Shown here: in pieces, positions 5,832-56,942 of the stretch | How positions within the stretch are numbered: the stretch's first letter is position 1 | Layout of the letters: the number at the start of each line of letters is the position of its first letter | NCBI GenBank assembly: GCA_000004985.1 | Contig: GG738917.1 | Reading direction: 5' to 3' (one strand) | Length of the DNA stretch: 64,000 bases | Origin: Naegleria gruberi | Lineage: Eukaryota | Notes under the pieces: model-generated | Databases searched by the model: none | What the model was told of the DNA's origin: nothing | What the model saw: the letters and a program-made list of their open reading frames with translations, nothing else | Position numbers and translations under genes: made by a program

Positions 5832-5909
5832 AGAATCCTTAATCGCACTAATTAAGGTCAAAATTCTCTTTTTGTTAAATCTAAAATAAATTAAAAACAA
5901 CTTTAAAAA

Positions 5910-6958: not shown

Positions 6959-6978
6959 TCACACCCACTAACTGAAAC

Positions 6979-8007
6979 ATGGTTGAATTAATCAACAAAT
7001 TAAAAATGTCACAAGTTGGTTTTTCATCACTGCCCACGGAAATTTATCTTCAAATTTTGACATTTGCTGTAGACTGGGAGCTATCAGATGTTTTATTGAA
7101 AACATCAAATGCCAAAATAGTTGCTTCCTTCCAATCTATCAACAGGAATATTATCAACAATTCGGAGATGCAAAGTTCGTTTAACAAATTTTGGTGGAAA
7201 TTATTCGAAATTAATTTCGGCATCCCCAAGAAAAATTATCAAAAATTGGATCATTTACGAAAGGAAATTATTGAATCAAAAATCGATTTGAGGAGGATTA
7301 TTTTACAAGCTCATTATACGAAATTCAAATTGTGGAAACAACCTAAATATTATGAAATTCCTGTTGATATTCATGATATGAGAATTGTGTTATTAGGAAG
7401 AGGAGGTGTTGGAAAATCTGCCATCACTATTCAATTTTGTCAACATATTTTCTATCCTGAATACGACCCTAGTATAGAAGATTCGTATAGGAAAACAGCA
7501 ATAGTGGATAACACACAGTTAATATTTGATATACTGGATACAGCTTATTTGGAATATTATTCACCAATGAAGGAACAATACATGCACTATGCTCATGCAT
7601 TTATTGTTGTTTGTGATCTTACAGATAGGCCAACACTCGTGGAGGTCAACTCTGCAGTTAATGATCTAGTTTTAGCACAAGATAGAGAAGTGAATGATAT
7701 GCCTATTGTGTTTGCCTTGAACAAGATTGATTTATTGAACGATTCAGATAAAAAACTAGCCACAGAGGAATTTAGTTCTGAAATTAGGAAAATAGTGAAT
7801 GAATTTTCATTGACGAATTGGAAAATTATGGAATGTAGTGCAAAGCAAAGGCAAAATATTGATGAAATATTTATGGATCTAGCCAGAAGAAGGCAATACT
7901 ATGATATTGTCGATGATTTCACGCTTTTGCAGAATATTACTCTCGAAAATAGTCAAAAGAAATCAATCTCAGAACATTCAAGACACAAGAAATGTTCTCT
8001 AATGTAA
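6979..8007 (+). CDS. F-box-like N-terminus fused to a Ras/Rap-like small GTPase domain, with a C-terminal CAAX box (CSLM).
   Basis: F-box-like LPTEIYLQILTFAV. P-loop GRGGVGKS. YDPSIEDSYRK (switch I, Ras/Rap-like). DILDTAYLEYY in place of DTAGQE. NKID (NKxD). ECSAK (SAK). C-terminal KKCSLM. Confidence 0.7.
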   Translation: MVELINKLKMSQVGFSSLPTEIYLQILTFAVDWELSDVLLKTSNAKIVASFQSINRNIINNSEMQSSFNKFWWKLFEINFGIPKKNYQKLDHLRKEIIESKIDLRRIILQAHYTKFKLWKQPKYYEIPVDIHDMRIVLLGRGGVGKSAITIQFCQHIFYPEYDPSIEDSYRKTAIVDNTQLIFDILDTAYLEYYSPMKEQYMHYAHAFIVVCDLTDRPTLVEVNSAVNDLVLAQDREVNDMPIVFALNKIDLLNDSDKKLATEEFSSEIRKIVNEFSLTNWKIMECSAKQRQNIDEIFMDLARRRQYYDIVDDFTLLQNITLENSQKKSISEHSRHKKCSLM

Positions 8008-10770: not shown

Positions 10771-13700
10771 ATGATAAGTAAGTTTGGTATGACCTTCACA
10801 AATTCTAAAATTCCAGAAGAGCTTTTAATTTTGGTGCTGTCAGTCACTTTCGTTCTCTGCTTTGCAAGTGTCAGCGAAGGCAGAGGACCAAAAGCATGTG
10901 CAGATTTGAGTACATTACCAGCTGGTTGTACTCAAAAATCTAGCAAAGATTATTCAGGTACTCTAGCAACATCAACAGGTCCTTTGATGGGAATGGCGGC
11001 TGACTTGTCTGCAAATATTTATGTCATCCAAAACGCTTTCAACTCCTTTAAGACAAACAACTTGGCAACTGCTACATTGAACAAGGGTATTATTTCAAAG
11101 TACTCAGCTGATAAGGGTGTTCTTGCTTGGGAAAAGTTGACATGTGGTTCAGGAAATACTTTCTTTAGCAATATTGTTGCTACTACTTCTCAAGTTAACA
11201 TTGGCGGTACTATTGAAAATGTAACCAATCCATCTGATTTGTGTATCTTTAACGCTGTAAGTGGATCCAATACGAGAGAATTGGACGGAAGAAATCTTTC
11301 GTTCTTTGTTTCGTTAGATTCTTCCTCAGGTATTGTTCGTTTTGTCAAATCACTCGATGTTTACAATGGCTCCACCATTCTTTCAATGACTTCTGATGCT
11401 AGCGACAATGTTATCATTGCACAAAAAGTTAAGAAATATGGTAGTGGTGTTATTTCTATGGATGGTATCACAGTTACTCTTCCAAACAATGATGTTAGCA
11501 ATGTGGTAATTTCTGAATTCTCCAACGTTGATGGTAATTTAAGATGGTCATCCGTTTTGTGTGAAGATCCATCAAGTGAAGAGGCATGTCAAGTTATTTC
11601 CATTCATTCCTCTTATGGAGTTGATGATAATGTTCTGATTGTTTTATCTGTGAAGGGAAGTGTAGTTTTGAAAAATTTTGGTAAAATATCATCCCAAGTT
11701 AATATGGCTAATATCTTCCTTGTTGGTTTGTCAAAGAATGGGCAAAAGGTCAGATTTGCAAAGACGTTGAGTTATAGTTTAACTATTGATATTACAAATG
11801 TCAAAGCAACTATTAATCAAGCTGGAGAAATGGTTTTAGCACTAGCTTGTTCTGATAATTGTATTATCAATCAAGAAATGGTAAATCCTGGTATCTACCT
11901 CATTCAATTTAACATGTTTAAACTCTCAATTGACTATGTTAAATTATTTGTACCAATATCTAACCTTGATACTGTTCAAGTTGCATCAATTGCAATCGAT
12001 GCCGCTGGTAATCCATATACCATTATCAAATCTTTGTCCACTCCCCAAATTACCATCTATGACAGTGATTCTAGAAAGTCAACCTTTGTTTCTCCAAATG
12101 TTCTTCTAGTGAAACATACAGCAAGTTCTGGATCAGTTTACTGGGCACAACCTATTGTCACTTTCTCTACTGTTAGCAAGCTGTTCATTCCAAATATGTT
12201 CAGAAGTGATTCTTATGTTTATACTTTCCCAACTATTCCAGTTGTTTATCAAGATAACAATCAAGTCAACTTGAACACATTCCAACCATGTTTGGGCACG
12301 GTTTCAAAGCTATCAACATCATATTTCGTTGGTGGTTCTGGAGGTGATCATTCATTTTCAACAGATCAGAAAGTCAAATCTATTGCTTGTTATGGTGAAG
12401 GAACAGTGAAAGGAATTGTTTTTAATTATTTTGTTGGTGAAGGTTTTAAAGCAGGAACAACAGAGGGAACCACAAAAACCATTATCTTTGATCCAGATGA
12501 GTACATTACAGAACTAGAGATGAGTGTTGATAGAGGAACATTTATAACCAACGTTGGTTATATCAGAATCAAGACAGACAGACAACAATTTACATTTGGA
12601 CAAAAGAGGTCGTCAAGTAACTACAATTACATTCTGGATAATGATAAGACTGTTATTGCGTGGTCTATCAAGTCAGGAACTCATGTTGATTCAATTACAG
12701 CATTTTTAGGAGATAGAGCCAACGGTTATCCACTTTATTGTGATTGTAAGTCAGGTTTTGAAGGTTCTACGTGTGAAAGAACTCAATGCTATGGTCAAGA
12801 TGCCACTGCCACAGGAGTTGTTTGTTCAGGAAAGGGCTCATGTTCAGGTCCAAACAGTTGTGCCTGTAATCTTGGATACAGCGGTCATGCCTGTATTGAT
12901 GTTAATTATTGTAACAATAATAGCTCATTGGCAGATCCATTGTTGTGTGGCACTGGTACTTGTAAGAGTGATTTGTGTGACTGTAAACCTGGGTTTTATG
13001 GCGAAAGATGTCAATATTGGGATTGTTATGGAATTCAACAAACAAACACTTCATATGCTTGTAGTGCTAATGGACAATGCCAATCTCCAAACAATTGTCA
13101 ATGCTATGATTATACCAAATATGGAGGTTTACAATGCCAACTCCCTATTTGTAATTTCTTACTTTCAAATCATTCAGATGTATGTACTGGACATGGCATT
13201 TGTACAGCTCCGGAAAAATGTGCATGTGAACCAAATTATTTGGGTCAATATTGTGAAGAATTCTCTTGTTTTGGAATTGAAAGAAATTCCTCAAATGTCT
13301 GTAATACTCGTGGTAAATGTATTGGTATTAATCAATGTAAATGCACTCTACCATACTATGGAAATGAATGTCAACTCTATGATTGCCATGGAGTAGTATA
13401 TAATGATAATAATGTCTGTTCTTCACATGGTCAATGTGGTTCACCAAATAATTGTACATGTCAGGCAGGTTATTTTTCAAATGATTGCAGTTTATATCAA
13501 TGTAGTGGTAAATTAATGAACGATTCGAGTGTCTGTTCTGGAAGAGGTACTTGTCAATCACCTAATAATTGCTCCTGTGTTGAAGGACATTCTGGTCAAG
13601 TGTGTGAAAATTACTATTGTTTCAATGTTTTTAAAGGAAATTCTTCAGTTTGCTCAGGTAATGGTAATTGTATTTCATCCAATAATTGCCAATGCAAATA

Positions 13701-13986
13701 TAATTTCAATGGAACAAATTGTGAAACATGTGCCAATAACTATTTTGGCAAACGCTGTACTAATAGCATCCCCAATAGAAGAGCACTCATGACATCCACC
13801 ACTTCAGTAGAAATCGAGTTCTTCTCTCCAAAATATTTTGCAACCAACAGTCAAACTACAATTAGTTGTGATAATATACTGTCCCCTGCATCTATCACTA
13901 AATATGTAGAATTGGACTTTGTAGACCAAAATTACTTTCCACTTTTGCAGATTCTAATGGAAACTATCAATATAGATTCACTATAA
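10771..13986 (+). CDS. 5' portion of a very large secreted/transmembrane protein: signal peptide, jacalin-like lectin domain, and about 12 tenascin/laminin-type EGF modules.
   Basis: Signal peptide MTFTNSKIPEELLILVLSVTFVLCFASVSEG. Jacalin-like segment GGSGGDHSF...IVFNYFVGEGF...FDPDEYITELEMSVDRGTFITNVGYIRIKTD...FTFGQ. Repeated C-x-C-x(2)-G-[YF]-x-G-x-x-C EGF units from 12740-13750. The antisense ORF 12740-13396 is a shadow. Confidence 0.7.
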   Translation: MISKFGMTFTNSKIPEELLILVLSVTFVLCFASVSEGRGPKACADLSTLPAGCTQKSSKDYSGTLATSTGPLMGMAADLSANIYVIQNAFNSFKTNNLATATLNKGIISKYSADKGVLAWEKLTCGSGNTFFSNIVATTSQVNIGGTIENVTNPSDLCIFNAVSGSNTRELDGRNLSFFVSLDSSSGIVRFVKSLDVYNGSTILSMTSDASDNVIIAQKVKKYGSGVISMDGITVTLPNNDVSNVVISEFSNVDGNLRWSSVLCEDPSSEEACQVISIHSSYGVDDNVLIVLSVKGSVVLKNFGKISSQVNMANIFLVGLSKNGQKVRFAKTLSYSLTIDITNVKATINQAGEMVLALACSDNCIINQEMVNPGIYLIQFNMFKLSIDYVKLFVPISNLDTVQVASIAIDAAGNPYTIIKSLSTPQITIYDSDSRKSTFVSPNVLLVKHTASSGSVYWAQPIVTFSTVSKLFIPNMFRSDSYVYTFPTIPVVYQDNNQVNLNTFQPCLGTVSKLSTSYFVGGSGGDHSFSTDQKVKSIACYGEGTVKGIVFNYFVGEGFKAGTTEGTTKTIIFDPDEYITELEMSVDRGTFITNVGYIRIKTDRQQFTFGQKRSSSNYNYILDNDKTVIAWSIKSGTHVDSITAFLGDRANGYPLYCDCKSGFEGSTCERTQCYGQDATATGVVCSGKGSCSGPNSCACNLGYSGHACIDVNYCNNNSSLADPLLCGTGTCKSDLCDCKPGFYGERCQYWDCYGIQQTNTSYACSANGQCQSPNNCQCYDYTKYGGLQCQLPICNFLLSNHSDVCTGHGICTAPEKCACEPNYLGQYCEEFSCFGIERNSSNVCNTRGKCIGINQCKCTLPYYGNECQLYDCHGVVYNDNNVCSSHGQCGSPNNCTCQAGYFSNDCSLYQCSGKLMNDSSVCSGRGTCQSPNNCSCVEGHSGQVCENYYCFNVFKGNSSVCSGNGNCISSNNCQCKYNFNGTNCETCANNYFGKRCTNSIPNRRALMTSTTSVEIEFFSPKYFATNSQTTISCDNILSPASITKYVELDFVDQNYFPLLQILMETINIDSL

Positions 13987-22037: not shown

Positions 22038-25000
22038 TTGTTCTTGTTGTATTTTAAAGACACACCAAGACGGGTTAACAACTTCAAAAAAAAACAAAAA
22101 TACAAGATGGTTACAAAGGCAAATATTTCAATTGTTGTCATCGTTGTGATGATGGCCATGTTGGTGTACATGGTTAATGGAGCACCATTAAATACATACT
22201 CTGTCAAGATTAGTACATTTGCAGGTGGTAATGGTGAATTCAAAGATCCACAAAAGCTTGCTAGATTATCAAATGGTGATATTTTGGTCAGTGATGCTTT
22301 AGGTCATGCCATTAAGAAGATTAACGTGACCAGTGGTGTGATTACTACAATTGCTGGTAATGGTACTGCTGGTTTTGGAGGGGATAATGGTCCAGCTGTC
22401 AATGCTCTAGTCAACAAACCATTTGGTATTGCAGTTTCTCAAACAGATGAGATTTACTTTGCTGATTCTGGAAATAATAGAATTAGAAAAATTGATTTGA
22501 CTGGTACAATTACAACAGTGGTTGGTACAGGAGATGCTACACCTTTCATTGATGGTGATTTGGCCACCAATTGTACCATTAACACTCCAATGGATGTTTC
22601 ATTGAGTACTTCAGGTGAATTATACATTGCTGATATGTACAATTACAGAATTAGAAAAGTTTTGACTAATGGTACCATTGTTACATTTGCTGGAAGTGGT
22701 CAATCAGGTCATACAGGTGATGGTGGTTTGGCAACCAATGCTGCCATGGCTCTTGCTTATGGTGTAAAAGTTTTTTCAAATGGAGAAGTTTACATTTCCG
22801 ATAGTTTCAATTTCAAAGTGAGAAAGGTTGATGTTAATGGAACTATTACAACTGTAGCTGGTTCTGGTGTTGCTCCTTATAGTGGTGATAACATTTTGGC
22901 TACTGCTGCCAATTTGAATTATCCAAGTGATGTTTTTCGTTTTGATACAGGTGAATTGGTCATTGCTGATACAAACAATAATAGAATTAGACTTGTAATG
23001 CCAAATGGTACAATTATTACAACTGCTGGTAATGGTACTGCTTCATTCTCTGATGGTGAATTTGCTGAAGAGAATGGATTATCTCTTCCAACTGGTTTGG
23101 TACTTATTCAAAATGGATTGTTGATTGCTGATGCTGGTAATAAGAGAATTAGATTGTTACAACGTACAATTTTCTCATGCTATGGAAAGTCAACACTCGA
23201 TTCCAATGTTTGCAGTGGTCAAGGAAGATGTGTTGGTAATAATATATGTCAATGTAATGCTGGTTTTGAAGGACCAACTTGTCTTCCATCCAAGTATTAT
23301 ATTACAACTGTTGCAACTGATTTTAAGGATCCACAAAAGATTGCCAAATTGTCAAATGGTGATATTATCGTTTCTGATACAGGTGATCACTCTATTAAGA
23401 AGATTAGTTACTCAACTGGTGTTATTTCAAGAATTGCTGGTACTGGTGTTGCAGGTTTTTCAGGTGATGGTGGTTTGGCTTCCCAAGCTCAACTCAATAA
23501 GCCATACGGTATTGCAATTACTGCTAATGATGAAATTTACATTGCTGACAATTTAAATCATAGAATTAGATTTGTTGATGTGAATGGCAATATTTCAACT
23601 GTTGCTGGTACTTCAATTGGTTTCTCTGGTGATAGTGGTTTGGCAACAGCTGCTAAATTAAATGCTCCAATGGATGTTTCATTGAGCGCTTCAGGTGATT
23701 TATATATTGCTGATAGAGATAATTATAGAATTAGAAGAGTTAGCAGTGGAGTTATTTCTACCTTTGCTGGTAATGGTCAATCTGGTTATTCTGGTGATGG
23801 TGGTCAAGCTACAAGTGCAGCCTTATCTCAAGCTTATGGTGTTAAGGTTATTAATGGCGAAGTTTACATTTCAGATAGTAACAATTACAAAGTTAGAAAG
23901 GTTGATGGAAGTGGAATTATTACAACTATTGCTGGTTCTGGAGCTGCTCCTTTCAATGGTGATGGATTGATGGCAACTTCTTCGAATATGAACCATCCAA
24001 CTGATGTTGCACTTCTACCAAGTGGTGAAATGATAATTGCGGACACTGATAACTATAGAATTAGAATGGTTCTTTTGAATGGTACAATGGTCACTATTGC
24101 AGGTAATGGTAATTATGTTTCAAGTGGTGATTATGGCCTTGCTACATCTGCTGGTTTGAAACTCCCAACCGGTATTTTAATTACTCAAGATGGTATCATG
24201 TTCACTGAAACAAGTAGTGTTGGAAGTAATGGAGGCGGTAAAGTTAGATTATTATCAACAGTTTATGTTCCTCCATTGTGTAATGGTATGTCTGCAAGTG
24301 ATCCTTATGTTTGTAACGGAAGAGGATCATGCATTGGTAAAGATTTGTGTCAATGTAATGCAGGATTCAATGGAACCTTCTGTGCAAATTCTCAATGTGT
24401 TAAACCATCTGCTGATATCACAATTCCATGTTTTGGAAATGGTAATTGTTCAAATGATGTTTGTACATGTGCTCCTGGTTTCTATGGACCTTACTGTTCA
24501 ATCTCAGTTATGATTAGCTCTAGAGGATATACTCATCCAATTATGGGTATTTTCATGATGGCTACAGTTAATTCATTGACCCTTGATGGTATTTCAAATG
24601 TTGATTACAGTTGGTCTCAAATTTCTGGTCCAACCATTTCAAACTTGGCAACCATGACCAATTTGAAAACTCCAACATTTATCATTCCAGGAAAATTCAA
24701 TTCTCTTTCATTCGATAACGGTCTTGTTTCTGGTAATACATATGGTTTTGCATTGACTGCCAAGATTACAACTGGTGCCTACACAACAACTGTCACAACC
24801 TCAACCACTGTTCTAGTTCAACAAAATCCAGCATTGACTTTCACATTAAAAGATGACAGTACCAATCAAGCTATTACTTCAGGTGTTGCTGGTACAACTG
24901 TTTTCAGAATTAACATTACAAGTAACTCAAATCCATACTCTGACTCTAGCTTCAAATACGGATTTGGTTTTGCAGATTCTAATAGTATTACAATTCTCAC

Positions 25001-26198
25001 TGATATGAAAGAAGGTCCAGCTACTTTTAAATTACCATTCATTTCAGGTCAATCAAGTGTTGATATCTATGTTGGATGTGAAGGAACTAACTCATACAGT
25101 GTTCAAAAATTGACAACTGTCTCATTGACAAATCCAGTTTCAAACTTGCCAACAAGTCAAGCCATTTCCTCAATTCAAAATCTCTTCACTTCAAATTCTT
25201 CTGTTGGTGATTTGTTGGGTGCTGCTTCACTTTTGAATACCATTACAACAACTGATGCAACTCAAATTGCAAATAAGCAAACTATCAGAAATTCAATCAT
25301 TACCACAATTTCTAAAGCAATTTCCACTGGAGATCTTGGTTCTGCAATTAAGGCCCTCTCTACCGTAACATCAGTCACATCAGAAATCACTCAAACTTCT
25401 GCTGATAACACACTTGAAACAATGATTAGTGGAACCAACAATCCACAATTCTCCAGAAATGAAGTTGCTTCACTCGTTAATATTGCTTCAAGTATTGGAT
25501 CAGTTTCAAGCGGTAGCAAGACAGTATCACTTGGTAATTCAATAGGATCTAAACTCATTACACAAATGTCCTTGGGAGATTTAATCAGTAGTAGTGGAGC
25601 CAATTTTGGTATTGCAATTTCGAGAGGTGTGAAATCATTCGCTCTTGCAAATGTTTCAATTGCTTTACCATCTAACACAAGATCTTTGAATGGCATTGAA
25701 TGTTTCTTCATTGATATTAAGGACCAACTTTCCTTCATGCAATGTTTGGCAAATTCCAATTGGGTAGCCAGAAATGGACCAAAATATGCACCAGGTACTC
25801 AAAGAGCTCTTAACGCTGCCACATATACTATTGGTTCATTGGTTTATGACCTGACACCAATGTACGACAATGGAACCATTGTTTCTGGTAATGTTACAAG
25901 TTCTACCGATATTCAAATTACAATTCCTTACACAGGATCATTGACACCAGTTTGTGGTATTTTAAATAGTGATCAAACTTACTCTGTCAATAGCAAAGCC
26001 ACACTAGTCAAAGGAAATGGTTCAGTAACTTGTAAAACTAAAGTATTGAGAGGAAATGTCTTGCTTTTAACTCAAGCTACAGCTGCTAGTTCACCTATCA
26101 CACCTAAGAAATCGACAATTGTTGGCGGAAGTGAAACAAACAAGTTGAGTGCATTGTTGATGTGTTTGTTGATGGCTATTTCCATGTTACTCTTCTAA
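22038..26198 (+). CDS. Large secreted, probably GPI-anchored, protein with two tandem NHL-repeat beta-propeller + EGF modules followed by a Thr/Ser-rich stalk. The likely true start is the Met at about 22107 (MVTKANISIVVIVVMMAMLVYMVNG).
   Basis: Repeated NHL-type blades (Y[IF]ADSxNNRIRK[IV], GxxGxxGDGG). EGF units (CSGQGRCVGNNICQCNAGFEGPTC and CNGRGSCIGKDLCQCNAGFNGTFC). Clear internal duplication between about 22200-23290 and 23300-24390. Hydrophobic C-terminus (LSALLMCLLMAISMLLF). The antisense ORFs inside are shadows. Confidence 0.75.
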   Translation: MFLLYFKDTPRRVNNFKKKQKYKMVTKANISIVVIVVMMAMLVYMVNGAPLNTYSVKISTFAGGNGEFKDPQKLARLSNGDILVSDALGHAIKKINVTSGVITTIAGNGTAGFGGDNGPAVNALVNKPFGIAVSQTDEIYFADSGNNRIRKIDLTGTITTVVGTGDATPFIDGDLATNCTINTPMDVSLSTSGELYIADMYNYRIRKVLTNGTIVTFAGSGQSGHTGDGGLATNAAMALAYGVKVFSNGEVYISDSFNFKVRKVDVNGTITTVAGSGVAPYSGDNILATAANLNYPSDVFRFDTGELVIADTNNNRIRLVMPNGTIITTAGNGTASFSDGEFAEENGLSLPTGLVLIQNGLLIADAGNKRIRLLQRTIFSCYGKSTLDSNVCSGQGRCVGNNICQCNAGFEGPTCLPSKYYITTVATDFKDPQKIAKLSNGDIIVSDTGDHSIKKISYSTGVISRIAGTGVAGFSGDGGLASQAQLNKPYGIAITANDEIYIADNLNHRIRFVDVNGNISTVAGTSIGFSGDSGLATAAKLNAPMDVSLSASGDLYIADRDNYRIRRVSSGVISTFAGNGQSGYSGDGGQATSAALSQAYGVKVINGEVYISDSNNYKVRKVDGSGIITTIAGSGAAPFNGDGLMATSSNMNHPTDVALLPSGEMIIADTDNYRIRMVLLNGTMVTIAGNGNYVSSGDYGLATSAGLKLPTGILITQDGIMFTETSSVGSNGGGKVRLLSTVYVPPLCNGMSASDPYVCNGRGSCIGKDLCQCNAGFNGTFCANSQCVKPSADITIPCFGNGNCSNDVCTCAPGFYGPYCSISVMISSRGYTHPIMGIFMMATVNSLTLDGISNVDYSWSQISGPTISNLATMTNLKTPTFIIPGKFNSLSFDNGLVSGNTYGFALTAKITTGAYTTTVTTSTTVLVQQNPALTFTLKDDSTNQAITSGVAGTTVFRINITSNSNPYSDSSFKYGFGFADSNSITILTDMKEGPATFKLPFISGQSSVDIYVGCEGTNSYSVQKLTTVSLTNPVSNLPTSQAISSIQNLFTSNSSVGDLLGAASLLNTITTTDATQIANKQTIRNSIITTISKAISTGDLGSAIKALSTVTSVTSEITQTSADNTLETMISGTNNPQFSRNEVASLVNIASSIGSVSSGSKTVSLGNSIGSKLITQMSLGDLISSSGANFGIAISRGVKSFALANVSIALPSNTRSLNGIECFFIDIKDQLSFMQCLANSNWVARNGPKYAPGTQRALNAATYTIGSLVYDLTPMYDNGTIVSGNVTSSTDIQITIPYTGSLTPVCGILNSDQTYSVNSKATLVKGNGSVTCKTKVLRGNVLLLTQATAASSPITPKKSTIVGGSETNKLSALLMCLLMAISMLLF

Positions 26199-26568: not shown

Positions 26569-29500
26569 TTAATTGGTTGTCCTGCTGTTACAAGTGGACA
26601 GGATCTTCAATAATTCAGATCTAATAATGGAGAAGGAAGGTCTTAAATCTGTTTGTTGATTCCAACATTGCTTTGCGAGTATAAAGTATTCCAAAATAGC
26701 CACAGGATTCATATTCGAAACTGGATACATATTTAACCATTCTTGTAATTCCTCAATAGTTTCGAAAGGAACAAGAGGTCTATAACCATTCAGAACCATT
26801 CCCAAAACATTAACAGGTGCCAAACTAGCATTTGCTCCAACTTTAGACGAAACTGTATAAGGAGTCAACTCAAAGAAAAGTTCCCACATGATTATTCCAA
26901 AAGAATAAACATCCATCTTGGTCGCCCTACTAATTTTCGACTCGTGTGAAATCTCCAAACTGTCATTTGTCAATTCTTGTTCATTTCTCATTAATTCTGG
27001 ACTCGCATAAAATAAAGTTCCAATTCCACGTGTCATGGTATTTTGTGTTAAATTTCCAACACTTCTACTCAATCCAAAATCACAAATTTTACATCTCAAA
27101 TCTTCGTCTAAAAGGACATTTCCTGGTTTGAGATCTCTGTGAATAATGGCAGGTTGTAGAGAATGCAAATAATCCATTCCAGCAGCAATGTCCTGGAGGA
27201 GGAGAATCTTTTGTTGGAATGTGAGATTAGTCTTGCCATTTCTGCAATTGAAAATTAATCTTTCCAATGAACCATTTTCCAAAAATTCAGTGACCATGTA
27301 TCTTGTTTCATCGGTGATACACACTCCGTAGAATTTCAAAATATTGGCATGTTGTAAACTTGCTAAAATTGAAGCTTCCTTCTCAAATTCCAATTGTAGC
27401 TCTTCATCATCTGCCAAATTTTTCAATGACTTGACAGCAACACTTGTTTCCTTAAATAAAATTGCCTTATAGACAACTCCTTGTCCACCTTCTGATATCT
27501 TTTTTACAATTTCCAAATCCTCAATGTTAATAATTATTGCTTCCAATCGAGATTTCATTTTCAATTCCATTTCATTTTGGCTTAATAGGGGTGAAGTGAG
27601 CGAGGTGGTATAGTAGGTCGAAAGAGGATCCTCTGCATTGCCAAATATCACTCTCTTATCAAGAATCTTTCTCGCAATGCTCTTCTCTGCTCTTTCCTTT
27701 CTCGATAACTTGTTGAGTCTTGCACGAATTTTCATTACAATGTAAATGACAAGAGTGGAAGAGATGATTCCCAAAATGAAGAATAGGATACTCGAAGGAA
27801 TGGCTATTCCTAAAATTAATCCCAACGATACTTTCTCTTTTGGAATGCACGAGTATCCAATCGCTGGAATACTTGTAAGAACAAGCTCTGTATCTGTTGG
27901 ACAATTAACAACTTGAATGGTTAGTGAGTTTGATTCCTTGAGTGGATATTTAGCCCATCCAATTGTTATATTAAACATGGTGGATAATCCCTTCTTGATG
28001 GATGCTTCAACAGAAAGCATTGTAATATTGACACCATCAAATGTTGGATTCACAATAAAAGTATAATCTGGATTAGTGACATTTACGTACATATTATCAA
28101 CATTGACTGGTATTACCATCTCTGAAGAAGTGGCCATTGCACTAATAAAAACTTGTTGTCCTGGATATAAATAGTAAAACTGTCCATAATTTGAGCTATT
28201 AAGACTCAATGAATTTTCCAATAAAAAATAATCATCTCCAAATATGTCAGCTCTATTTCCAATAAAACGATTATTTGTTAATGAAGTTTCAGCTTTTTGA
28301 AATTGATAAATGGCTCCTCCAGCTCTCTGAGCTCTATTATTCCTAAATGTACAATCTCTAATCGATGCCAATGCCTCTTTCCAATAAAAGAGAGCTCCTC
28401 CATTATAAGCATAATTGGATTCAAAGGTTGCATTCTTAATAGATAATGAATCAACACTTAAAGAGGATAATATAAAGATTGCTCCTCCATTTCCCATATA
28501 AATCTTGTCAGTTGGCAGAGAATTACTATAGGTAACTCTATTTCCATAAAATAGAGAACCTGTCAATGATAAATCAGTTGCACCTAAGATGAAGATTGCT
28601 CCACCAGATTTCTTTGCTGTGTTATTCCTAAATATGGTATTGGAAATTTCTAGACTCTGTGTAGTTGAAATGAAAATAGCTCCTCCCAAATTTGGAGAAT
28701 AATTATCTTGAAATAGAGAATTTTCAATTAAGGTAACGACCAATTTGGTTTCTTTTGCCATTGAATCAATATAAATAGGAGAACCTAATCCTCTGGTGAA
28801 ATTCGATTCCTTAATATAAAATTTCAAGATATCCGAAAGGTAAAACGTCGAAGCTCTTTCTCCCTTATTAGAATCAAATTTGCTATTCATCACCCTTAAT
28901 GTATCCACTACAAATAATGAGACAGGTGCTTGATAAGTTATTAGAAACTCAGTATCATAACTCAAAGTACTAAAAGAAGAACTAGACGAAATTTCACAAC
29001 TTTCAAACTCTACATTGGTGCTAATTCTAATAGAAAACCAAATACCTCCATTCAGCATTCTACTTTTCCAAACTCTGACCAATCCAGTATTTGCAATCAC
29101 AAAAACTGGATCACTCTTCATTGCCACTGAAAATGTGCAATTTTCAATTAAAATATTATCAGCAAAAGAAATTGAAAAAAAAGCCAAAGTTTCCTCAAAT
29201 ATTGAATTATATAATGATAATAAAGATGATTGTTCTGTGTTGATGATAAAAGATTGAGTTGATTGAATATTCGAAATGTAGAGCTTATCTTGTTTCGTTC
29301 CAATTAGAATATTCATTGTAAAGTAGAGAATTTTGGAATTATCAATTCTTGATAATTGAATAGAATTTGTTGTGAATTTAAATATATAAACATTTGAATA
29401 TTCCAAGATAAATAAATTTAGAGAAGTGAAATCTGAAATTAAATTTACAATTTTCACATTCGAAAGTAAAAAACCTTTCGCATAGGAATCATAAATTCTC

Positions 29501-30075
29501 ACATTTTCAATTCCAATATTTGCAAAATATAAAACATCAACATCTTTTCTATCCACATTCAATAAATTCAAATTATCTACTTGACATTTAACTGTCACTT
29601 GTTTAGTTTGGTTCGGTTGACCAGAAATTTTAATCCAATAAAACAAGCCAGTGAGTGGTGAACGTAGGATTGTGGGTGGTGACGAACAATCGGCTAATAA
29701 ATCATTCATCAAAATTATTTCGACTGCAACTATTCGATTCACAAAATAGAGAAGGAAATTTATATTATTCGAAAGGTCGATATCTAGTCGGGTGAATACT
29801 TGATGAAGATTTACGCAAGGAGTGTCTAGAGTACAGTTTAGACTTGAAGATTCGAATGCAGTGGCCGAATTCACATAGTATGTGAAATTTAAATAGGGAG
29901 CTTTCGAATAGGATTGAAAAAACTGTTCTGCTTGTTGTGCCTTGTTTTCTAATGGAAAGAAAAGAAAGAAAGTTATTAGAATAATGATGATGAAAAAGGT
30001 GTGATGGGTTTCTAATAGTTTCATTTTTTTGACGAAAGCTCTTTGAACTTCACTAATAATTTTTTTAATAGCCAT
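26569..30075 (-). CDS. Receptor-like TKL protein kinase: signal/anchor, large ectodomain with polymorphic-membrane-protein-type (GGA[IL] / FxxN) parallel beta-helix repeats, a single TM, and a cytoplasmic kinase domain.
   Basis: Ectodomain repeats NLGGAIFIS...FRNNTAKKSGGAIFIL...GNGGAIFIL...FESNYAYNGGALFYW...FRNNRAQRAGGAIYQF. TM LGLILGIAIPSSILFFILGIISSTLVIYIVM. Kinase motifs ISEGGQGVVYKA, VAVK, HRDLKPGNVLLD, DFGLSR, GTLFYASPE. Confidence 0.8.
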   Translation of the reverse strand: MAIKKIISEVQRAFVKKMKLLETHHTFFIIIILITFFLFFPLENKAQQAEQFFQSYSKAPYLNFTYYVNSATAFESSSLNCTLDTPCVNLHQVFTRLDIDLSNNINFLLYFVNRIVAVEIILMNDLLADCSSPPTILRSPLTGLFYWIKISGQPNQTKQVTVKCQVDNLNLLNVDRKDVDVLYFANIGIENVRIYDSYAKGFLLSNVKIVNLISDFTSLNLFILEYSNVYIFKFTTNSIQLSRIDNSKILYFTMNILIGTKQDKLYISNIQSTQSFIINTEQSSLLSLYNSIFEETLAFFSISFADNILIENCTFSVAMKSDPVFVIANTGLVRVWKSRMLNGGIWFSIRISTNVEFESCEISSSSSFSTLSYDTEFLITYQAPVSLFVVDTLRVMNSKFDSNKGERASTFYLSDILKFYIKESNFTRGLGSPIYIDSMAKETKLVVTLIENSLFQDNYSPNLGGAIFISTTQSLEISNTIFRNNTAKKSGGAIFILGATDLSLTGSLFYGNRVTYSNSLPTDKIYMGNGGAIFILSSLSVDSLSIKNATFESNYAYNGGALFYWKEALASIRDCTFRNNRAQRAGGAIYQFQKAETSLTNNRFIGNRADIFGDDYFLLENSLSLNSSNYGQFYYLYPGQQVFISAMATSSEMVIPVNVDNMYVNVTNPDYTFIVNPTFDGVNITMLSVEASIKKGLSTMFNITIGWAKYPLKESNSLTIQVVNCPTDTELVLTSIPAIGYSCIPKEKVSLGLILGIAIPSSILFFILGIISSTLVIYIVMKIRARLNKLSRKERAEKSIARKILDKRVIFGNAEDPLSTYYTTSLTSPLLSQNEMELKMKSRLEAIIINIEDLEIVKKISEGGQGVVYKAILFKETSVAVKSLKNLADDEELQLEFEKEASILASLQHANILKFYGVCITDETRYMVTEFLENGSLERLIFNCRNGKTNLTFQQKILLLQDIAAGMDYLHSLQPAIIHRDLKPGNVLLDEDLRCKICDFGLSRSVGNLTQNTMTRGIGTLFYASPELMRNEQELTNDSLEISHESKISRATKMDVYSFGIIMWELFFELTPYTVSSKVGANASLAPVNVLGMVLNGYRPLVPFETIEELQEWLNMYPVSNMNPVAILEYFILAKQCWNQQTDLRPSFSIIRSELLKILSTCNSRTTN

Positions 30076-40120: not shown

Positions 40121-43100
40121 TTGCGGAGTATGAAAAATGTTTGCGCAAAAGTGAATCATTCAAAAAGTCACAAATCAACTCAACCAGACGTTTTTACTTT
40201 TCACATTCAAAAACAAAAAATGCGACGAGAGGACTGGTTGGTCCAAGCAACATGCGTTTTGTTCCAATTGTTGGCTACAGTACTATTGTGTAGTACTACT
40301 AACGGCCAAACAATCCAAGACGATCTCTATATTGTCCCAATTGCAAAAATCAATGTTCCAGAATATGGATCAGTATCATTCTATCCACAAGTCTACTACT
40401 TTAATTCAAGCTATTCTTCAAGTTCATTGCAAGTCTCTTACTCGATGGCAGATGGCTCAGCATTGAAAAGTGGCATGACAGTTTTGAATGGTGTATTGAA
40501 CTTTTATTCAAATCCTGCACATGTTGGTCAACTCAGTGTGTTGAGAAATGTATCTTATTATAATAGTGAAAACAAGTTTATTACAATTTCACATGTGACC
40601 ATATTTCAAGTCATTCCAACACCAACACCAAATCAATTATCCTTACTATTTTCAGATGATTTTTTAGGTGGTGATTTATCTAAATGGTATTTATTAGATG
40701 GCACTATGAAACTACAATCAGCTCAACTAAATATTTATCAAAACAATACGAAACTTGTGACTGTTAACAGTTTTGATTTAACTAATCAATTGGGTGTAAC
40801 CTTTACATTCAATTTATTGACCACATGGACAGCTTCTAGAGGAATTCTTATTTATGTGGACAAGTTGAATTATTATGAAATTAACTTGTCAGGTTCTTCT
40901 TTTACTATTACTCGTTGTGTGAATGGAAACCCAACAGTGATATTGCAAAGCACCAAGCTATTACAAGTTCATGCTGCAAATTATTATTCAAGTTATAAGG
41001 TTTATTTACAATATACCAAAGAAGGAATGATAATTACTATTGCTAAAATTGGAATATTGGCAAGTGATTATGTTCTAAATGTAGTTGATAGTTTTACTAA
41101 TATTGATGTATTCAAAAGTGTTAAATTGGGTTTTTATGAAAAAACTGTCGACTCTCCATCTCAATCAAATTTCAAAGTGTTACAATGTAAAGTTTACAAT
41201 GGAAAATTAATGCATTCCAGACAAGGTGTAACTTATCACGTTGATGGTAAAAATGGTAATGATTTGAATGATGGTCTTTCTAGTTCAAGTGCCTTCAAAA
41301 CATTGAATACAGCTCAATACCAATTATTACCTGATGACACTCTATTAATTCATGATTCAATCTATAGAGAAAGCTTTCAAATTAATAGACAAGCATCCGT
41401 TGACCATCCAATTACTATCAAAGCATTTAATCAACCAACCACAACATCCACTTTTACAACAACACCTTACACTCACACAGCTATTCTTGACGGATCGCTT
41501 GTTTTGGATAATTCTAAATTTAAAAAAATTACCAATTCAAACATTTATCAAATTGCACTGAAATTTACACCAGATGTTGTCTATCAAGATAATGTTAAAA
41601 TGAGCTTGGCAATGAAACCACTTCCAAGTAATTTACAAGATGAATATTTTGTTGACAATTACATTCATCCTAAAAACAATTCAATTCAATCATCATCTGA
41701 TAATTCAATGATTTATTTACAATTGGATGACATGTTCAAATATGATCAATTTGGTAGCCAGGCTCCAGATGATTTCTGGGTTGGTGCCATCTTTTATCAA
41801 TTTTACAAGGCAGGTGTCTATGTTATAACACGTAAAATAGTATCATATAATGCTACTACTAATACCATTGGATTGCTTTATAATGACTTGCCTGTTGTAA
41901 CAAGTGATTCGTATGCTATTGCTAATCATATCGGTTGCTTTTCACAAGCTGGCCAATACGTTGTGAATACGAACTTTATTTCAGTTTCATTAAGTACTGA
42001 CCCTACCGTATCTCAAACAATCCTGGAGGTTTCTGCACTGGACAATGGTGCTAAAATTGTTAATGGAATGGAGGGAATTAACCTTCAAGGTTTAATGGTT
42101 AGAAAATATCTAAGTGATGGAATTGTGTGTTCTGGTGGTTGCACAAATTTGGTAATCAGTAATTGCTCTGCCAAATATAATGGTGGATCTGGTATTAGTT
42201 TAAGTTATTCCTCAAATCTACTAGTTGATGGTGGTGAAATGTCACAAAATTTCAACAATGGAGTTAATTTTGGAGGTGCTGTAAAAGATTCCACAGTACA
42301 AAATACCTATACTCACAGAAATATTAATAATGGTATTTGGGTTGGTAATGCAGGAACACCTCTATTCTATTGTGTGAATATTCTATTGAAATCTAATAAG
42401 GTTGGTCCTCAAAATAGTGAAAGACTTCATCCAGATAACATTCAATTGGCCAGTGCTGATAATATTACACTCGAATCGAATATATTAACACAAGATGGTG
42501 ATCAAAATATGTGGATGGATAAGAATGGTCTTGTAATATTTAAGAGAAATATTATCATTGGTGGACCACTTGGTGTTAATAATGCACAGAGTGTTGTAAT
42601 GTTCAACAATGTGTTCTATAATTCTTATTTGAGATTTGCTGTTGCACCAGTTGGTCCATTTGTTGGACTTGATAATATTGCTGATTGGTCTGACATGTTC
42701 AATAGTATTACAGATACCAATTCACAATCTATTGCAAATATTCTTGTATGGTCAAGTATGAATTCACAATTATCGTCTACTATCAAATCCTATTCATCTT
42801 ACAAATCATTAACAACTGCAGATAAGACTGCTATTATTGATCAAATTAACAGTGTTATCAATAATACTTCTTTTATGGCACAATTTAAGGATGTAGTAAT
42901 CCCTTTTTTAGGAAAAGAGCATGTTGTGGCCTATCCATACTGGAATGCTATGACTAAACGAGGATTGATGGATAAATCAACTGGTAAACTCACAAACAGC
43001 AATAATGAAACAATTTACGAAGCTAAAGGTTTAACACGTGCTATTTTGGATGAAGTTTTTGATGGAATTATTTACAAAGGTCCAATTACCTTCTATCCAA

Positions 43101-43612
43101 GAATTGTTTCCATTAAGAATAATGCTTTCATTGAATCATTTTTACAATTACCTTCCACAACATACAGCTTACTACCATATTGGGAATCCAATTTCAATTA
43201 TATTGAACAACCTGCCTCGTATCATGCCAATATTTGGAAAGCATTAGCTGGCCCTAATACTGTATTCGAAACATCAGCTAAAAACACTACTCTCTACTTT
43301 AAGAATATGACAGCATATGATTTCCACTTGAATTGTAATTCAAATATTACACTTATTGACAAAGGAACCAATGTTGGTTTACCATATTATGGTCAAGCAC
43401 CTGATATTGGACCTTATGAATCCAACTGCAATAATGAAATCAATCCAGTCAATCCAGTCACTCCAAAACCTTCCATTTCAACTAATCCTCAAATCTCAGC
43501 AATTGCTTCACCAAAACCAAATCAGTCACGGGTTGTTTCTTCAACTACAATGCCTGAATGGAAAGTGTTCTATTTATTGATTGGTTTGATTATCTCAATG
43601 CTTGTGCCTTAA
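40121..43612 (+). CDS. Large membrane-anchored protein with right-handed parallel beta-helix (pectin-lyase-fold) repeats, and a C-terminal TM.
   Basis: Signal anchor LVQATCVLFQLLATVLLCSTTNG. Beta-helix repeats (NGMEGINLQG..., GGCTNLVISNCSAKYNGGSGISLSYSSNLLVDGGEMSQNFNNGVNFGGA..., NGIWVGNAG). C-terminal TM WKVFYLLIGLIISMLVP. Confidence 0.65.
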   Translation: MRSMKNVCAKVNHSKSHKSTQPDVFTFHIQKQKMRREDWLVQATCVLFQLLATVLLCSTTNGQTIQDDLYIVPIAKINVPEYGSVSFYPQVYYFNSSYSSSSLQVSYSMADGSALKSGMTVLNGVLNFYSNPAHVGQLSVLRNVSYYNSENKFITISHVTIFQVIPTPTPNQLSLLFSDDFLGGDLSKWYLLDGTMKLQSAQLNIYQNNTKLVTVNSFDLTNQLGVTFTFNLLTTWTASRGILIYVDKLNYYEINLSGSSFTITRCVNGNPTVILQSTKLLQVHAANYYSSYKVYLQYTKEGMIITIAKIGILASDYVLNVVDSFTNIDVFKSVKLGFYEKTVDSPSQSNFKVLQCKVYNGKLMHSRQGVTYHVDGKNGNDLNDGLSSSSAFKTLNTAQYQLLPDDTLLIHDSIYRESFQINRQASVDHPITIKAFNQPTTTSTFTTTPYTHTAILDGSLVLDNSKFKKITNSNIYQIALKFTPDVVYQDNVKMSLAMKPLPSNLQDEYFVDNYIHPKNNSIQSSSDNSMIYLQLDDMFKYDQFGSQAPDDFWVGAIFYQFYKAGVYVITRKIVSYNATTNTIGLLYNDLPVVTSDSYAIANHIGCFSQAGQYVVNTNFISVSLSTDPTVSQTILEVSALDNGAKIVNGMEGINLQGLMVRKYLSDGIVCSGGCTNLVISNCSAKYNGGSGISLSYSSNLLVDGGEMSQNFNNGVNFGGAVKDSTVQNTYTHRNINNGIWVGNAGTPLFYCVNILLKSNKVGPQNSERLHPDNIQLASADNITLESNILTQDGDQNMWMDKNGLVIFKRNIIIGGPLGVNNAQSVVMFNNVFYNSYLRFAVAPVGPFVGLDNIADWSDMFNSITDTNSQSIANILVWSSMNSQLSSTIKSYSSYKSLTTADKTAIIDQINSVINNTSFMAQFKDVVIPFLGKEHVVAYPYWNAMTKRGLMDKSTGKLTNSNNETIYEAKGLTRAILDEVFDGIIYKGPITFYPRIVSIKNNAFIESFLQLPSTTYSLLPYWESNFNYIEQPASYHANIWKALAGPNTVFETSAKNTTLYFKNMTAYDFHLNCNSNITLIDKGTNVGLPYYGQAPDIGPYESNCNNEINPVNPVTPKPSISTNPQISAIASPKPNQSRVVSSTTMPEWKVFYLLIGLIISMLVP

Positions 43613-53480: not shown

Positions 53481-56942
<3,462 letters not shown>

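What the first reader, a model, noticed from the sequence alone, without database searches (positions are those of the whole stretch)
26569..30075. Receptor-like TKL kinase with a chlamydial Pmp-type (GGAI/FxxN) beta-helix ectodomain
The ectodomain carries multiple GGA[IL]F / FxxN repeats (FRNNTA..GGAIFIL, FESNYA..GGALFYW, FRNNRA..GGAIYQF) typical of polymorphic-membrane-protein / pectin-lyase-fold beta-helices. A single TM and an apparently active TKL kinase domain follow, with all key catalytic motifs intact. Transmembrane receptor kinases are rare in dictyostelid-type genomes, and a beta-helix adhesin-like sensor domain suggests carbohydrate or surface recognition, for example of prey bacteria. 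The neighbouring 40121-43612 gene encodes a second beta-helix membrane protein without the kinase.
Basis: partly seen in the sequence, partly recalled or inferred. Interest (0 to 1): 0.6.

Follow-up and report, generated by a model that had tools for sequence, protein, structure and literature searches.

The report
Naegleria beta-helix receptor-like kinase
This is an intact gene of the amoeboflagellate Naegleria gruberi (not a slime mould) for a single-pass membrane protein with an outward-facing beta-helix, built partly from "Pmp-type" repeats, joined to an apparently active inward-facing kinase; it belongs to a small, unstudied family in Naegleria and its relatives.

Summary
Window 26569..30075 (-) is one uninterrupted 1168-codon ORF. 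It has five FxxN...GGA[IL][FY] units about 27 residues apart (0.003 expected by chance) and a Pfam Chlam_PMP match (47 bits). It also has one strong transmembrane segment and a kinase domain with the key catalytic motifs. The only motif departure is Ser for the first P-loop glycine.

The interpretation needs four corrections:
- The organism is Naegleria gruberi (gene NAEGRDRAFT_74710, 'predicted protein'), a heterolobosean, not a dictyostelid.
- The public gene model lacks the N-terminus. The likely start is Met18 (ATG at 30024), which gives a signal peptide.
- 'Chlamydial' is only the Pfam name. No Pmp middle domain or autotransporter barrel was detected.
- The neighbouring gene 40121..43612 is not a detectable relative.

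New context: collinear homologues exist in N. fowleri and N. lovaniensis and on one environmental contig. The closest kinases are heterolobosean transmembrane kinases with other ectodomains (EGF repeats or unknown). A Protostelium protein made the same kind of fusion, probably independently.

Ligand, location and activity are untested. I rate it a new variant of a known kind (receptor-like kinase), of moderate interest.

The parts
26569..30075 (-). Complete uninterrupted ORF (1168 codons plus stop). It corresponds to N. gruberi NAEGRDRAFT_74710 / XP_002670288.1 / UniProt D2W030, whose public model (1046 aa) starts only at ORF residue 123.
30022..30024 (-). Probable true initiation codon (Met18). 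The upstream ATG at 30073-30075 is not conserved in a 98%-identical contig from run ERR1078381, whereas this ATG and everything downstream are conserved.
29938..30024 (-). Predicted signal peptide (ORF residues 18-46: MKLLETHH-TFFIIIILITFFLFF-PLENKA). Prediction rests on hydropathy only.
   Evidence: the N. fowleri homologue has an equivalent hydrophobic N-terminus
28228..29937 (-). Right-handed parallel beta-helix ectodomain (ORF residues 47-616). It includes the N-terminal cap with the invariant Cys81-x5-Cys87 pair and a capping helix. AF2 confidence is high for residues 266-616, moderate for the cap and low for 191-262.
28240..28713 (-). Five canonical Pmp-type FxxN...GGA[IL][FY] coils plus one degenerate coil (ORF residues 455-612). 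There is no repeat similarity at the DNA level.
27841..28176 (-). Membrane-proximal all-beta stalk domain (ORF residues 634-745). It carries the Cys725...Cys743 pair, conserved in every homologue whose stalk aligns. pLDDT is about 66-83 in the second model.
27733..27825 (-). Single transmembrane helix (ORF residues about 751-781; hydropathy peak 2.65).
27640..27732 (-). Conserved charged juxtamembrane helix (ORF residues 782-812: KIRARLNKLSRKERAEKSIARKILDKRVIFGN). AF2 models it as a continuation of the TM helix. The motif is shared by family members and by P0242, P0243 and P0251.
26611..27516 (-). TKL-type protein kinase domain (ORF residues 854-1155). It has VAVK, HRDLKPGN, DFG, SPE and DVYSFG motifs. 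Two family-specific insertions are present, one after SPE and one around RPxxPF...EW(L)xxY.

Best explanation
The locus encodes a type I, single-pass receptor-like protein kinase of Naegleria gruberi.

Shown by sequence and models:
- Translation most likely starts at Met18 and gives a cleavable signal peptide.
- The ectodomain is about 570 residues of right-handed parallel beta-helix. Its last six coils are Pmp-type FxxN/GGA repeats.
- The ectodomain has 12 N-glycosylation sequons.
- A small all-beta stalk with a conserved cysteine pair follows, then one TM helix that continues into a conserved charged juxtamembrane helix.
- A flexible linker leads to a TKL-group 'RD' kinase with Ser/Thr-type catalytic-loop signatures (HRDLKPGN, GTxxYxSPE).

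Inferred:
- The beta-helix faces the outside, or the lumen of endocytic or phagocytic vesicles.
- It binds an extended surface ligand, such as a polysaccharide or cell-surface polymer, another protein, or another copy of itself.
- Ligand-driven clustering brings the kinase domains together, so they phosphorylate each other's activation loops (conserved T-M-T motif) and pass on a signal.

Family context:
- The gene belongs to a small family in Naegleria. This family sits inside a wider clade of transmembrane kinases, mainly from heteroloboseans. Those kinases share the kinase module, and some also share the juxtamembrane helix, but they carry different ectodomains.
- The ectodomain evolves about twice as fast as the cytoplasmic part.
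For: - Architecture and motifs.
- Organism and gene identity.
- Start codon.
- Stalk, TM-juxtamembrane helix and kinase fold. Foldseek finds TK/TKL kinases with TM-score (target-normalised) about 0.8.
- TKL affinity.
- Topology: the basic stretch directly after the TM segment fits a cytoplasmic kinase.
- Family: N. fowleri XP_044568771.1 and N. lovaniensis XP_044543568.1 and XP_044554921.1 all have Chlam_PMP plus a kinase domain and align collinearly; a TM segment aligns in all three, and the kinase catalytic motifs are invariant.
- Second N. fowleri locus and one environmental contig.
- Kinase clade with EGF or unknown ectodomains (Acrasis kona and environmental contigs).
- Evolutionary rates: ectodomain 23-35% identity against cytoplasmic part 50-63%.
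- Functional analogies from the literature: chlamydial and trichomonad Pmp repeats mediate adhesion (PMC6701047). The Dictyostelium TKL receptor-like kinase VSK3 sits in endolysosomal membranes with its N-terminus in the lumen and is needed for phagocytosis (PMC2064856).
Against: - There are no expression, localisation, activity or ligand data for any family member, and no paper mentions these accessions.
- Signal peptide and TM segment are predicted only from hydropathy and an AF2 helix; no dedicated predictor was available.
- The AF2 ectodomain alignment has only 4 sequences, and ORF residues 191-262 and the stalk are poorly modelled in that run.
- The first P-loop glycine is Ser in this protein (alignment). 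This is probably harmless, but its effect on activity is untested.
- TKL placement rests on best hits, not on a kinome phylogeny.
Confidence: 0.6

Rival explanations
1. The protein is primarily an adhesin. The Pmp-type beta-helix mediates attachment to substrate, prey or other amoebae, possibly through Pmp-Pmp self-association. The kinase only tunes adhesion or endocytic recycling and does not relay a ligand signal.
Against: Trichomonad Pmps carry short tails with endocytic motifs, not enzymes. Here the cytoplasmic kinase is the most conserved part of the protein (50-63% identity against 23-35%) and its catalytic motifs are invariant. That points to selection on catalysis and signalling.
Confidence: 0.2
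2. The protein is a sensor of endosomal or phagosomal contents. It resides in vesicle membranes with the beta-helix in the lumen, where it contacts ingested bacteria. Like Dictyostelium VSK3, it would regulate phagosome maturation.
For: VSK3 has the same topology, with a signal peptide, lumenal N-domain, TM segment and TKL kinase. It localises to late endosomes and lysosomes and is required for phagocytosis (PMC2064856). Naegleria is a bacterivore.
Against: There are no localisation data. The VSK3 ectodomain is a TIG domain unrelated to this beta-helix. No similarity beyond the general TKL level has been shown, because Dictyostelium sequences could not be fetched.
Confidence: 0.15
3. The ectodomain is a membrane-tethered carbohydrate-active enzyme, such as a polysaccharide lyase, hydrolase or epimerase acting on bacterial capsules or the amoeba's own glycocalyx or cyst wall. 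The kinase would be regulatory.
Against: Sequence identity to those enzymes is only 7-16%. No catalytic Pfam family is detected even at E up to 1, and there is no PDB sequence relative. What is conserved across the family is the structural FxxN/GGA core, not an identifiable active-site constellation. Any long beta-helix scores high against these folds.
Confidence: 0.08
4. The locus is an artefact or decaying gene. Either two genes are fused by chance in one reading frame, or it is a pseudogene or pseudokinase, or it is a recent bacterial (chlamydial) insertion.
For: The public model omits the N-terminus. A second N. fowleri locus and one environmental contig show a frame change between ectodomain and kinase and are annotated as two genes.
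Against: The 3.5-kb ORF has no stop. It is collinear with full-length homologues in two other species. The region upstream of the annotated start is conserved, including the Cys-x5-Cys motif. The catalytic motifs are invariant. GC content is 0.31-0.36, as in the rest of the window. No DNA-level repeats are found. No chlamydia-specific domains were detected.
Confidence: 0.03

Closest known systems
Chlamydial polymorphic membrane proteins (Pmp; type V autotransporter adhesins)
   Same: Both have tandem FxxN + GGA(I/L/V) units and match Pfam Chlam_PMP, and this ectodomain is modelled as a beta-helix. Chlamydial Pmp repeats have a documented role in adhesion (PMC6701047).
   Different: This protein shows no detectable Pmp middle domain or C-terminal autotransporter beta-barrel. 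It is anchored by a TM helix and carries a kinase. Only about 6 of the helix coils are canonical Pmp units. The repeat region matches a broad range of prokaryotic and eukaryotic repeat proteins, not specifically chlamydial ones.
Trichomonad Pmp-like surface proteins (e.g. TVAG_140850, TVAG_249300)
   Same: Both are eukaryotic type I membrane proteins. In both, a Pmp-repeat ectodomain has a single C-terminal TM segment in place of the bacterial autotransporter (PMC6701047).
   Different: The trichomonad proteins have short cytoplasmic tails with endocytic motifs and no kinase. Any direct relationship beyond the repeat motif was not tested.
Dictyostelium TKL receptor kinases (GDT family; DRK family rk1-3 / VSK3)
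   Same: Both are protist single-pass receptor-like kinases of the TKL group, with a signal peptide, lineage-specific ectodomain, TM segment and C-terminal kinase (PMC1420674; PMC2064856). One Acrasis kona relative of this kinase (P0256) is named 'DrkD' in its source record.
   Different: They come from a different supergroup (Amoebozoa versus Discoba). Their ectodomains are gdt, drk or TIG domains, not a beta-helix. Orthology of the kinase domains was not tested.
Plant RLK/Pelle receptor kinases and Raf-like kinases (CERK1, BRI1, SOBIR1, CTR1) and animal IRAK/RIPK
   Same: These are the closest solved kinase domains by sequence (E 4e-32 to 1e-25), and CTR1, B-Raf, RIPK2 and RIPK4 also rank high by structure. 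Like the plant RLKs, this is an RD-type Ser/Thr kinase on a single-pass receptor.
   Different: Identity is only about 24-30%. This kinase has family-specific insertions and a conserved juxtamembrane helix. The plant ectodomains are LRR, LysM, lectin and similar; I found no report of a beta-helix ectodomain on a receptor kinase.
Protostelium nocturnum EP01117_P012030 (P0002)
   Same: It has the same architecture type: a long Pmp-repeat ectodomain, a TM segment and a kinase.
   Different: Its kinase is TK-like (HRDLSARN) and only 29% identical to this one. Its ectodomain is almost entirely canonical Pmp repeats and is twice as long. The fusion is most likely independent.

Membership tests
Chlamydial Pmp autotransporter family | Multiple FxxN and GGA(I/L/V) tetrapeptide repeats (Pfam PF02415) | tested here: met
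   Five full units are present. PF02415 scores 47.2 bits against a cutoff of 20.6.
Chlamydial Pmp autotransporter family | Pmp middle domain (PMP_M) | tested here: not met
   The Pfam scan at E up to 1 lists only 7 families, and none is a Pmp middle domain.
Chlamydial Pmp autotransporter family | C-terminal autotransporter beta-barrel | tested here: not met
   The C-terminal half is a TM helix plus a kinase, with no autotransporter hit.
Right-handed parallel beta-helix (pectin-lyase-like) fold | Stack of three-stranded coils forming a right-handed beta-helix | tested here: met
Eukaryotic protein kinase, catalytically competent | P-loop, VAIK Lys, alphaC Glu, HRD Asp, catalytic-loop Asn, DFG Asp, APE, subdomain IX Asp and XI Arg | tested here: met
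   All are present, and all but the first P-loop position are invariant in the 4 family members. The first P-loop Gly is Ser here and Gly or Ala in relatives. Enzymatic activity itself cannot be tested with these tools.
TKL (tyrosine kinase-like) group | Kinase domain closer to TKL families than to other ePK groups | tested here: inconclusive
   Top PDB sequence hits are nearly all TKL: CTR1, CERK1, IRAK4, TNNI3K, SOBIR1, RIPK4, BRI1 and MLT. The Pfam PK_Tyr_Ser-Thr score slightly exceeds Pkinase. Foldseek neighbours are a TK/TKL mix. No group-specific HMMs or kinome phylogeny were available.
Type I single-pass receptor kinase | N-terminal signal peptide | tested here: inconclusive
   There is a hydrophobic segment at residues 20-46 with A at -1 and N at -3 before Gln47. 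The start at Met18 is supported by strain comparison. No SignalP-type predictor was available.
Type I single-pass receptor kinase | Exactly one TM helix between ectodomain and cytoplasmic kinase, with positive-inside topology | tested here: met
   A single hydropathy peak of 2.65 lies at 748-785 between ectodomain and kinase. A weaker hydrophobic segment at 105-123 lies in the ectodomain's N-terminal cap region. A basic cluster follows the TM segment. AF2 models a continuous helix at 751-808.
Type I single-pass receptor kinase | Ligand-dependent activation at a membrane | not testable with these tools
   This needs localisation, binding and phosphorylation experiments.
Naegleria Pmp-beta-helix kinase family (defined here) | Collinear cap with Cys-x5-Cys, beta-helix with Pmp units, stalk with Cys pair, TM segment, KEKAEK...KILDK juxtamembrane helix and kinase with an RPxIPF...EWL insert | tested here: met
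   Full-length alignment with N. fowleri P0237 and N. lovaniensis P0159 and P0217 gives 33-36% overall identity, and the listed features are invariant.

The most novel reading that the evidence does not exclude
Heteroloboseans may have evolved their own receptor-kinase system: a conserved TM, juxtamembrane and TKL-kinase module onto which different ectodomains have been placed (Pmp beta-helix, EGF repeats, others). On this reading the beta-helix members act as pattern-recognition or adhesion receptors for bacterial or host surface polymers. I found no earlier report of a receptor kinase with a parallel beta-helix sensor domain. Members in the pathogen N. fowleri would then be candidate host-contact sensors.
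Probability: 0.3. Interest if true: 0.6.

Novelty: new variant of a known kind. Interest (0 to 1): 0.42.

Why it matters
Receptor kinases arose several times in eukaryotes, with RTKs in animals and their relatives, RLK/Pelle kinases in plants, TMKs in Entamoeba, and the GDT and DRK families in Dictyostelium. How free-living protists outside these groups sense surfaces and prey is largely unknown.

This locus documents a receptor-like kinase family in Discoba whose sensor is a Pmp-type beta-helix. In bacteria and trichomonads that module is linked to adhesion. I found no paper describing such a domain combination.

The locus also corrects a truncated public gene model. It points to homologues in the brain-eating amoeba N. 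fowleri that could be tested as adhesion or contact-sensing receptors, and it gives an example of ectodomains being swapped on a shared kinase module.

The protein is so far only a database 'predicted protein' and no function is shown. The value is therefore a well-defined hypothesis and family, not a discovery of mechanism.

Tried and rejected
- Profile search with the N-terminal, non-Pmp part of four ectodomains (A2) returned only the strain variant P0090. It missed even the sequences the profile was built from, so it says nothing about family size.
- The first full-length word-indexed search was swamped by repeat proteins and missed the Naegleria homologues. The exhaustive search found them.
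- The look-up of encoding contigs had no record for P0001 or P0244. I therefore could not check whether the second N. gruberi kinase (P0244, 320 aa) also has an upstream beta-helix.
- The afdb50 fold library was unavailable.
- The N. gruberi genome paper is not held, and the TMKome paper has no held supplements and does not mention Naegleria or Pmp.
- A sequence search of the ectodomain against PDB found nothing.
- Rejected: the neighbouring gene 40121..43612 as a detectable paralogue.
- Rejected: recent HGT or compositional anomaly.
- Rejected: recent DNA-level repeat expansion.
- Rejected: common origin with the Protostelium Pmp-kinase, whose kinase is 29% identical and of a different catalytic-loop type.
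Full report
**1. What is in the sequence**

Window 26569..30075 on the minus strand is one open reading frame of 1168 codons. GC content (0.31-0.36) matches the rest of the window.

Pfam finds three things in it:
- PK_Tyr_Ser-Thr at residues 854-1155 (E 1.7e-48)
- Pkinase (E 1e-43)
- Chlam_PMP repeats (47.2 bits, curated cutoff 20.6)

A motif scan finds five GGA[IL][FY] motifs at residues 464, 491, 530, 559 and 586. Each is preceded by FxxN at 455, 482, 509, 551 and 577, and a sixth degenerate unit (FIGN) lies at 604. The FxxN motifs are 26-27 residues apart, or 42 where there is an insertion. In 20000 shuffles of the ectodomain the mean count is 0.003 and the maximum is 1. The repeats leave no trace at the DNA level, so they are old.

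Hydropathy gives a signal-like segment at 20-46 and one strong TM segment at 748-785. A basic cluster (KIRARLNKLSRKERAEK) follows the TM segment, and there are 12 N-x-S/T sequons upstream of it.

The kinase has VAVK, HRDLKPGN, DFG, SPE, DVYSFG and RPSF. The P-loop is S-E-G-G-Q-G, so the first glycine is Ser.

**2. Whose gene it is, and the gene model**

The protein is 100% identical over 1046 residues to Naegleria gruberi XP_002670288.1 / EFC37544.1 / NAEGRDRAFT_74710 / UniProt D2W030, annotated 'predicted protein'. The window is therefore heterolobosean (Discoba), not dictyostelid.

The public model starts at ORF residue 123 (MNDLLADC...) and so lacks the hydrophobic N-terminus. The omitted 122 residues are nevertheless coding. 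They align with the N. fowleri and N. lovaniensis homologues and contain an invariant Cys-x5-Cys motif (Cys81 and Cys87).

A 98%-identical contig from sequencing run ERR1078381 helps to place the start:
- Its called protein begins MKLFETHH.
- It conserves the ATG at window 30024 (Met18) and everything downstream.
- The region holding the upstream ATG at 30075 is rearranged and has no ATG.

The likely product is therefore 1151 aa, starting MKLLETHH-TFFIIIILITFFLFF-PLENKA|QQ. No family alignment shows a window-specific insertion that would suggest a retained intron.

**3. Fold of the ectodomain**

I ran AlphaFold2 on the ectodomain (ORF residues 47-747) with a 4-sequence family alignment. Mean pLDDT is 66.5, but confidence is high (mostly 85-98) over ORF residues 306-616. 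The strand pattern there is short and periodic, as in a beta-helix. The N-terminal cap (a helix plus the first coils) has moderate confidence, and residues 191-262 and the stalk have low confidence.

- Klebsiella phage capsule depolymerases
- GH110 and GH87 glycosidases
- the AlgE4 and AlgG epimerases
- NosD
- PL6 lyases
- phage tailspikes
- the autotransporter Vag8
- the pneumococcal adhesin PfbA

Sequence identity to these is 7-16%, and there is no sequence-level PDB relative. The 'no beta-helix' refutation criterion is therefore not met. However, the fold alone does not distinguish a binding role from an enzymatic one.

**4. Stalk, membrane anchor and kinase**

A second model covers ORF residues 600-1168 and used 13 aligned sequences. 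Mean pLDDT is 74. It shows:
- an all-beta stalk domain at residues 634-745, carrying the Cys725/Cys743 pair, which is conserved in every homologue whose stalk aligns
- a continuous helix at 751-808 spanning the TM segment and the conserved charged juxtamembrane motif
- a disordered linker
- a well-modelled bilobal kinase, with low confidence only in the activation loop and one family-specific insertion

Foldseek places the kinase next to MerTK, RIPK2, B-Raf, RIPK4 and CTR1, with TM-score normalised to the target of about 0.8. By sequence the best solved relatives are CTR1 (3.9e-32), CERK1, IRAK4, TNNI3K, SOBIR1, RIPK4 and BRI1, which are TKL-group kinases. HRDLKPGN and GTLFYASPE are Ser/Thr-type signatures; this reading rests on established kinase knowledge. 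TKL assignment is well supported by best hits but was not tested with a kinome phylogeny.

**5. Relatives**

An exhaustive HMMER scan with the ectodomain found 18070 hits. Nearly all are very large multi-repeat proteins (1000-8000 aa) that match only query residues about 400-580, the Pmp coils, in many stretches. Only a few proteins match along the whole ectodomain in one stretch:
- N. fowleri XP_044568771.1 (FDP41_007973, 1277 aa)
- N. lovaniensis XP_044543568.1 (1166 aa)
- N. lovaniensis XP_044554921.1 (1190 aa)

All three are unnamed 'protein kinase domain-containing' proteins. All have Chlam_PMP plus a kinase domain above Pfam cutoffs, and a TM segment aligns in each.

They align collinearly with the window protein at 33-36% identity. 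The cap cysteines, the FxxN/GGA cores, the stalk cysteines, the juxtamembrane motif and the kinase catalytic motifs are invariant. The ectodomains are 23-35% identical, while the cytoplasmic parts are 50-63% identical.

A profile of the cytoplasmic part finds its closest kinases mainly in heteroloboseans and on unassigned environmental contigs:
- An environmental contig encodes Pmp coils, stalk, TM segment, the same juxtamembrane helix and a kinase (P0242). An upstream beta-helix/Pmp ORF lies in another frame.
- N. fowleri FDP41_009158 (P0243) has stalk, TM segment and kinase. The adjacent upstream gene on the same strand encodes a signal peptide, Cys-x5-Cys, a beta-helix and Pmp repeats. The two are separated only by a frame change at a GTGA overlap. 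This is a second family locus annotated as two genes.
- Acrasis kona AKO1_008222 and an environmental protein have EGF-repeat ectodomains, a TM segment and a kinase.
- Two environmental proteins have unrecognised ectodomains.
- There are also kinase-only models from N. gruberi and N. lovaniensis.

Plant Raf-like kinases (CTR1, EDR1) and RLKs follow at clearly lower scores. The picture is a TM-kinase clade, found mainly in heteroloboseans, with interchangeable ectodomains. The Pmp-beta-helix type is one sub-family of it.

Outside this group, a Protostelium nocturnum transcript encodes a Pmp-repeat ectodomain, a TM segment and a kinase. Its kinase is TK-like (HRDLSARN) and only 29% identical, so the fusion was most likely independent.

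**6. What it is not**

It is not a member of the chlamydial Pmp autotransporter family. No Pmp middle domain or autotransporter barrel is detected, and the repeat matches are taxonomically broad. The named hits include Methanobrevibacter, Planctomycetota, Chloroflexi, Caulerpa and Cymbomonas.

The neighbouring gene 40121..43612 has no significant similarity to this ectodomain (E 0.2). It has only a Beta_helix hit exactly at the Pfam cutoff (25.9 bits) and a weak match to an FN3-domain protein in the PDB. It may contain a short beta-helix, but it is not a kinase-less paralogue.

**7. How it most likely works**

Shown:
- the architecture of a type I receptor-like kinase with intact catalytic residues
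- a beta-helix ectodomain
- conservation of this arrangement across the genus
- faster evolution of the ectodomain than of the kinase

Inferred:
- The beta-helix is exposed at the cell surface or in the lumen of endocytic or phagocytic compartments.
- It binds an extended ligand such as a glycan polymer, a protein, or another copy of itself.
- Clustering activates the RD kinase by trans-phosphorylation of the activation loop (conserved T-M-T).

Two lines of published work support this by analogy. Pmp repeats mediate adhesion in Chlamydia, and trichomonad Pmp-like type I proteins increase adhesion (PMC6701047). Dictyostelium VSK3, a TKL receptor-like kinase with a lumenal N-domain, is required for phagocytosis (PMC2064856). 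The rivals (mainly an adhesin, a phagosomal sensor, a tethered polysaccharide-active enzyme, or an artefact) are weighed in the Rival explanations section. None can be excluded except the artefact or fusion reading, which is largely refuted.

**8. Novelty and verdict**

The gene is already in public databases, but only as an unnamed prediction with a truncated model. No paper in the searched library mentions it or its homologues, links PF02415 repeats to a kinase, or describes a receptor kinase with a parallel beta-helix ectodomain. A 2023 cross-kingdom survey of transmembrane kinases mentions neither Naegleria nor Pmp or beta-helix domains.

It is best classed as a new variant of a known kind: a receptor-like kinase with an unusual sensor module. 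It defines a small Naegleria family with one environmental relative, which includes genes of the pathogen N. fowleri. Interest is moderate (0.42). The architecture is solid, but ligand, location and activity are all untested.

Noticed in passing
window 22038..26198 (+): A 1386-aa ORF with two blocks of NHL repeats (Pfam NHL 163 bits; TEN_NHL 164 bits), each followed by teneurin-type EGF domains. It has an N-terminal signal-like segment and a C-terminal hydrophobic tail, so it is a large teneurin-like surface protein lying next to the kinase gene, convergently oriented (3' ends adjacent).
   Followed up: partly
window 10771..13986 (+): A 1071-aa ORF combining a Jacalin-like lectin domain with teneurin-type EGF repeats. 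Together with 22038..26198, 26569..30075 and 40121..43612, this makes several large predicted secreted or surface proteins within about 35 kb.
   Followed up: no
window 40121..43612 (+): A 1163-aa ORF with a signal-like N-terminus and a C-terminal hydrophobic tail. It has a Pfam Beta_helix hit exactly at the cutoff (25.9 bits, residues 666-747) and a weak PDB match to an FN3-domain protein (7v6m). It shows no significant similarity to the kinase ectodomain.
   Followed up: partly
window 48929..52213 (+): A 1094-aa ORF made of about 20 DUF4116 repeats (573 bits).
   Followed up: no
window 53493..56942 (+): A 1149-aa ORF with a CNH domain and a Vps39 C-terminal zinc finger, so it looks like a Vam6/Vps39-type tethering factor.
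   Followed up: no
window 43832..45525 (+): Two adjacent same-strand ORFs (285 and 272 aa) that, by eye, look like the two halves of one Hsp70-like ATPase gene split by a short intron or frame change. No domain search was run on them.
   Followed up: no
L003 (N. fowleri VFQX01000067.1) 3998..7800: A second family locus. An ORF with signal peptide, Cys-x5-Cys, beta-helix and Pmp repeats ends at a GTGA overlap, and the stalk, TM segment and kinase (FDP41_009158, whose kinase has two introns) continue in another frame. The record annotates two genes. The cause could be a sequencing error, a tiny intron or real decay.
   Followed up: partly
L002 (JGI metagenome 3300002220 contig) 17..3050: An environmental homologue with the same beta-helix/Pmp, stalk, TM, juxtamembrane and kinase order, again with a frame change between two overlapping ORFs.
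   Followed up: partly
proteins P0072 and P0021 (one search hit list): Other unusual fusions of Pmp/Beta_helix repeats appear among the metagenome hits. One carries a family-C GPCR 7TM domain (PF00003) and one a P-type ATPase domain (PF00122). This suggests Pmp beta-helices are used repeatedly as extracellular modules on membrane proteins.
   Followed up: no
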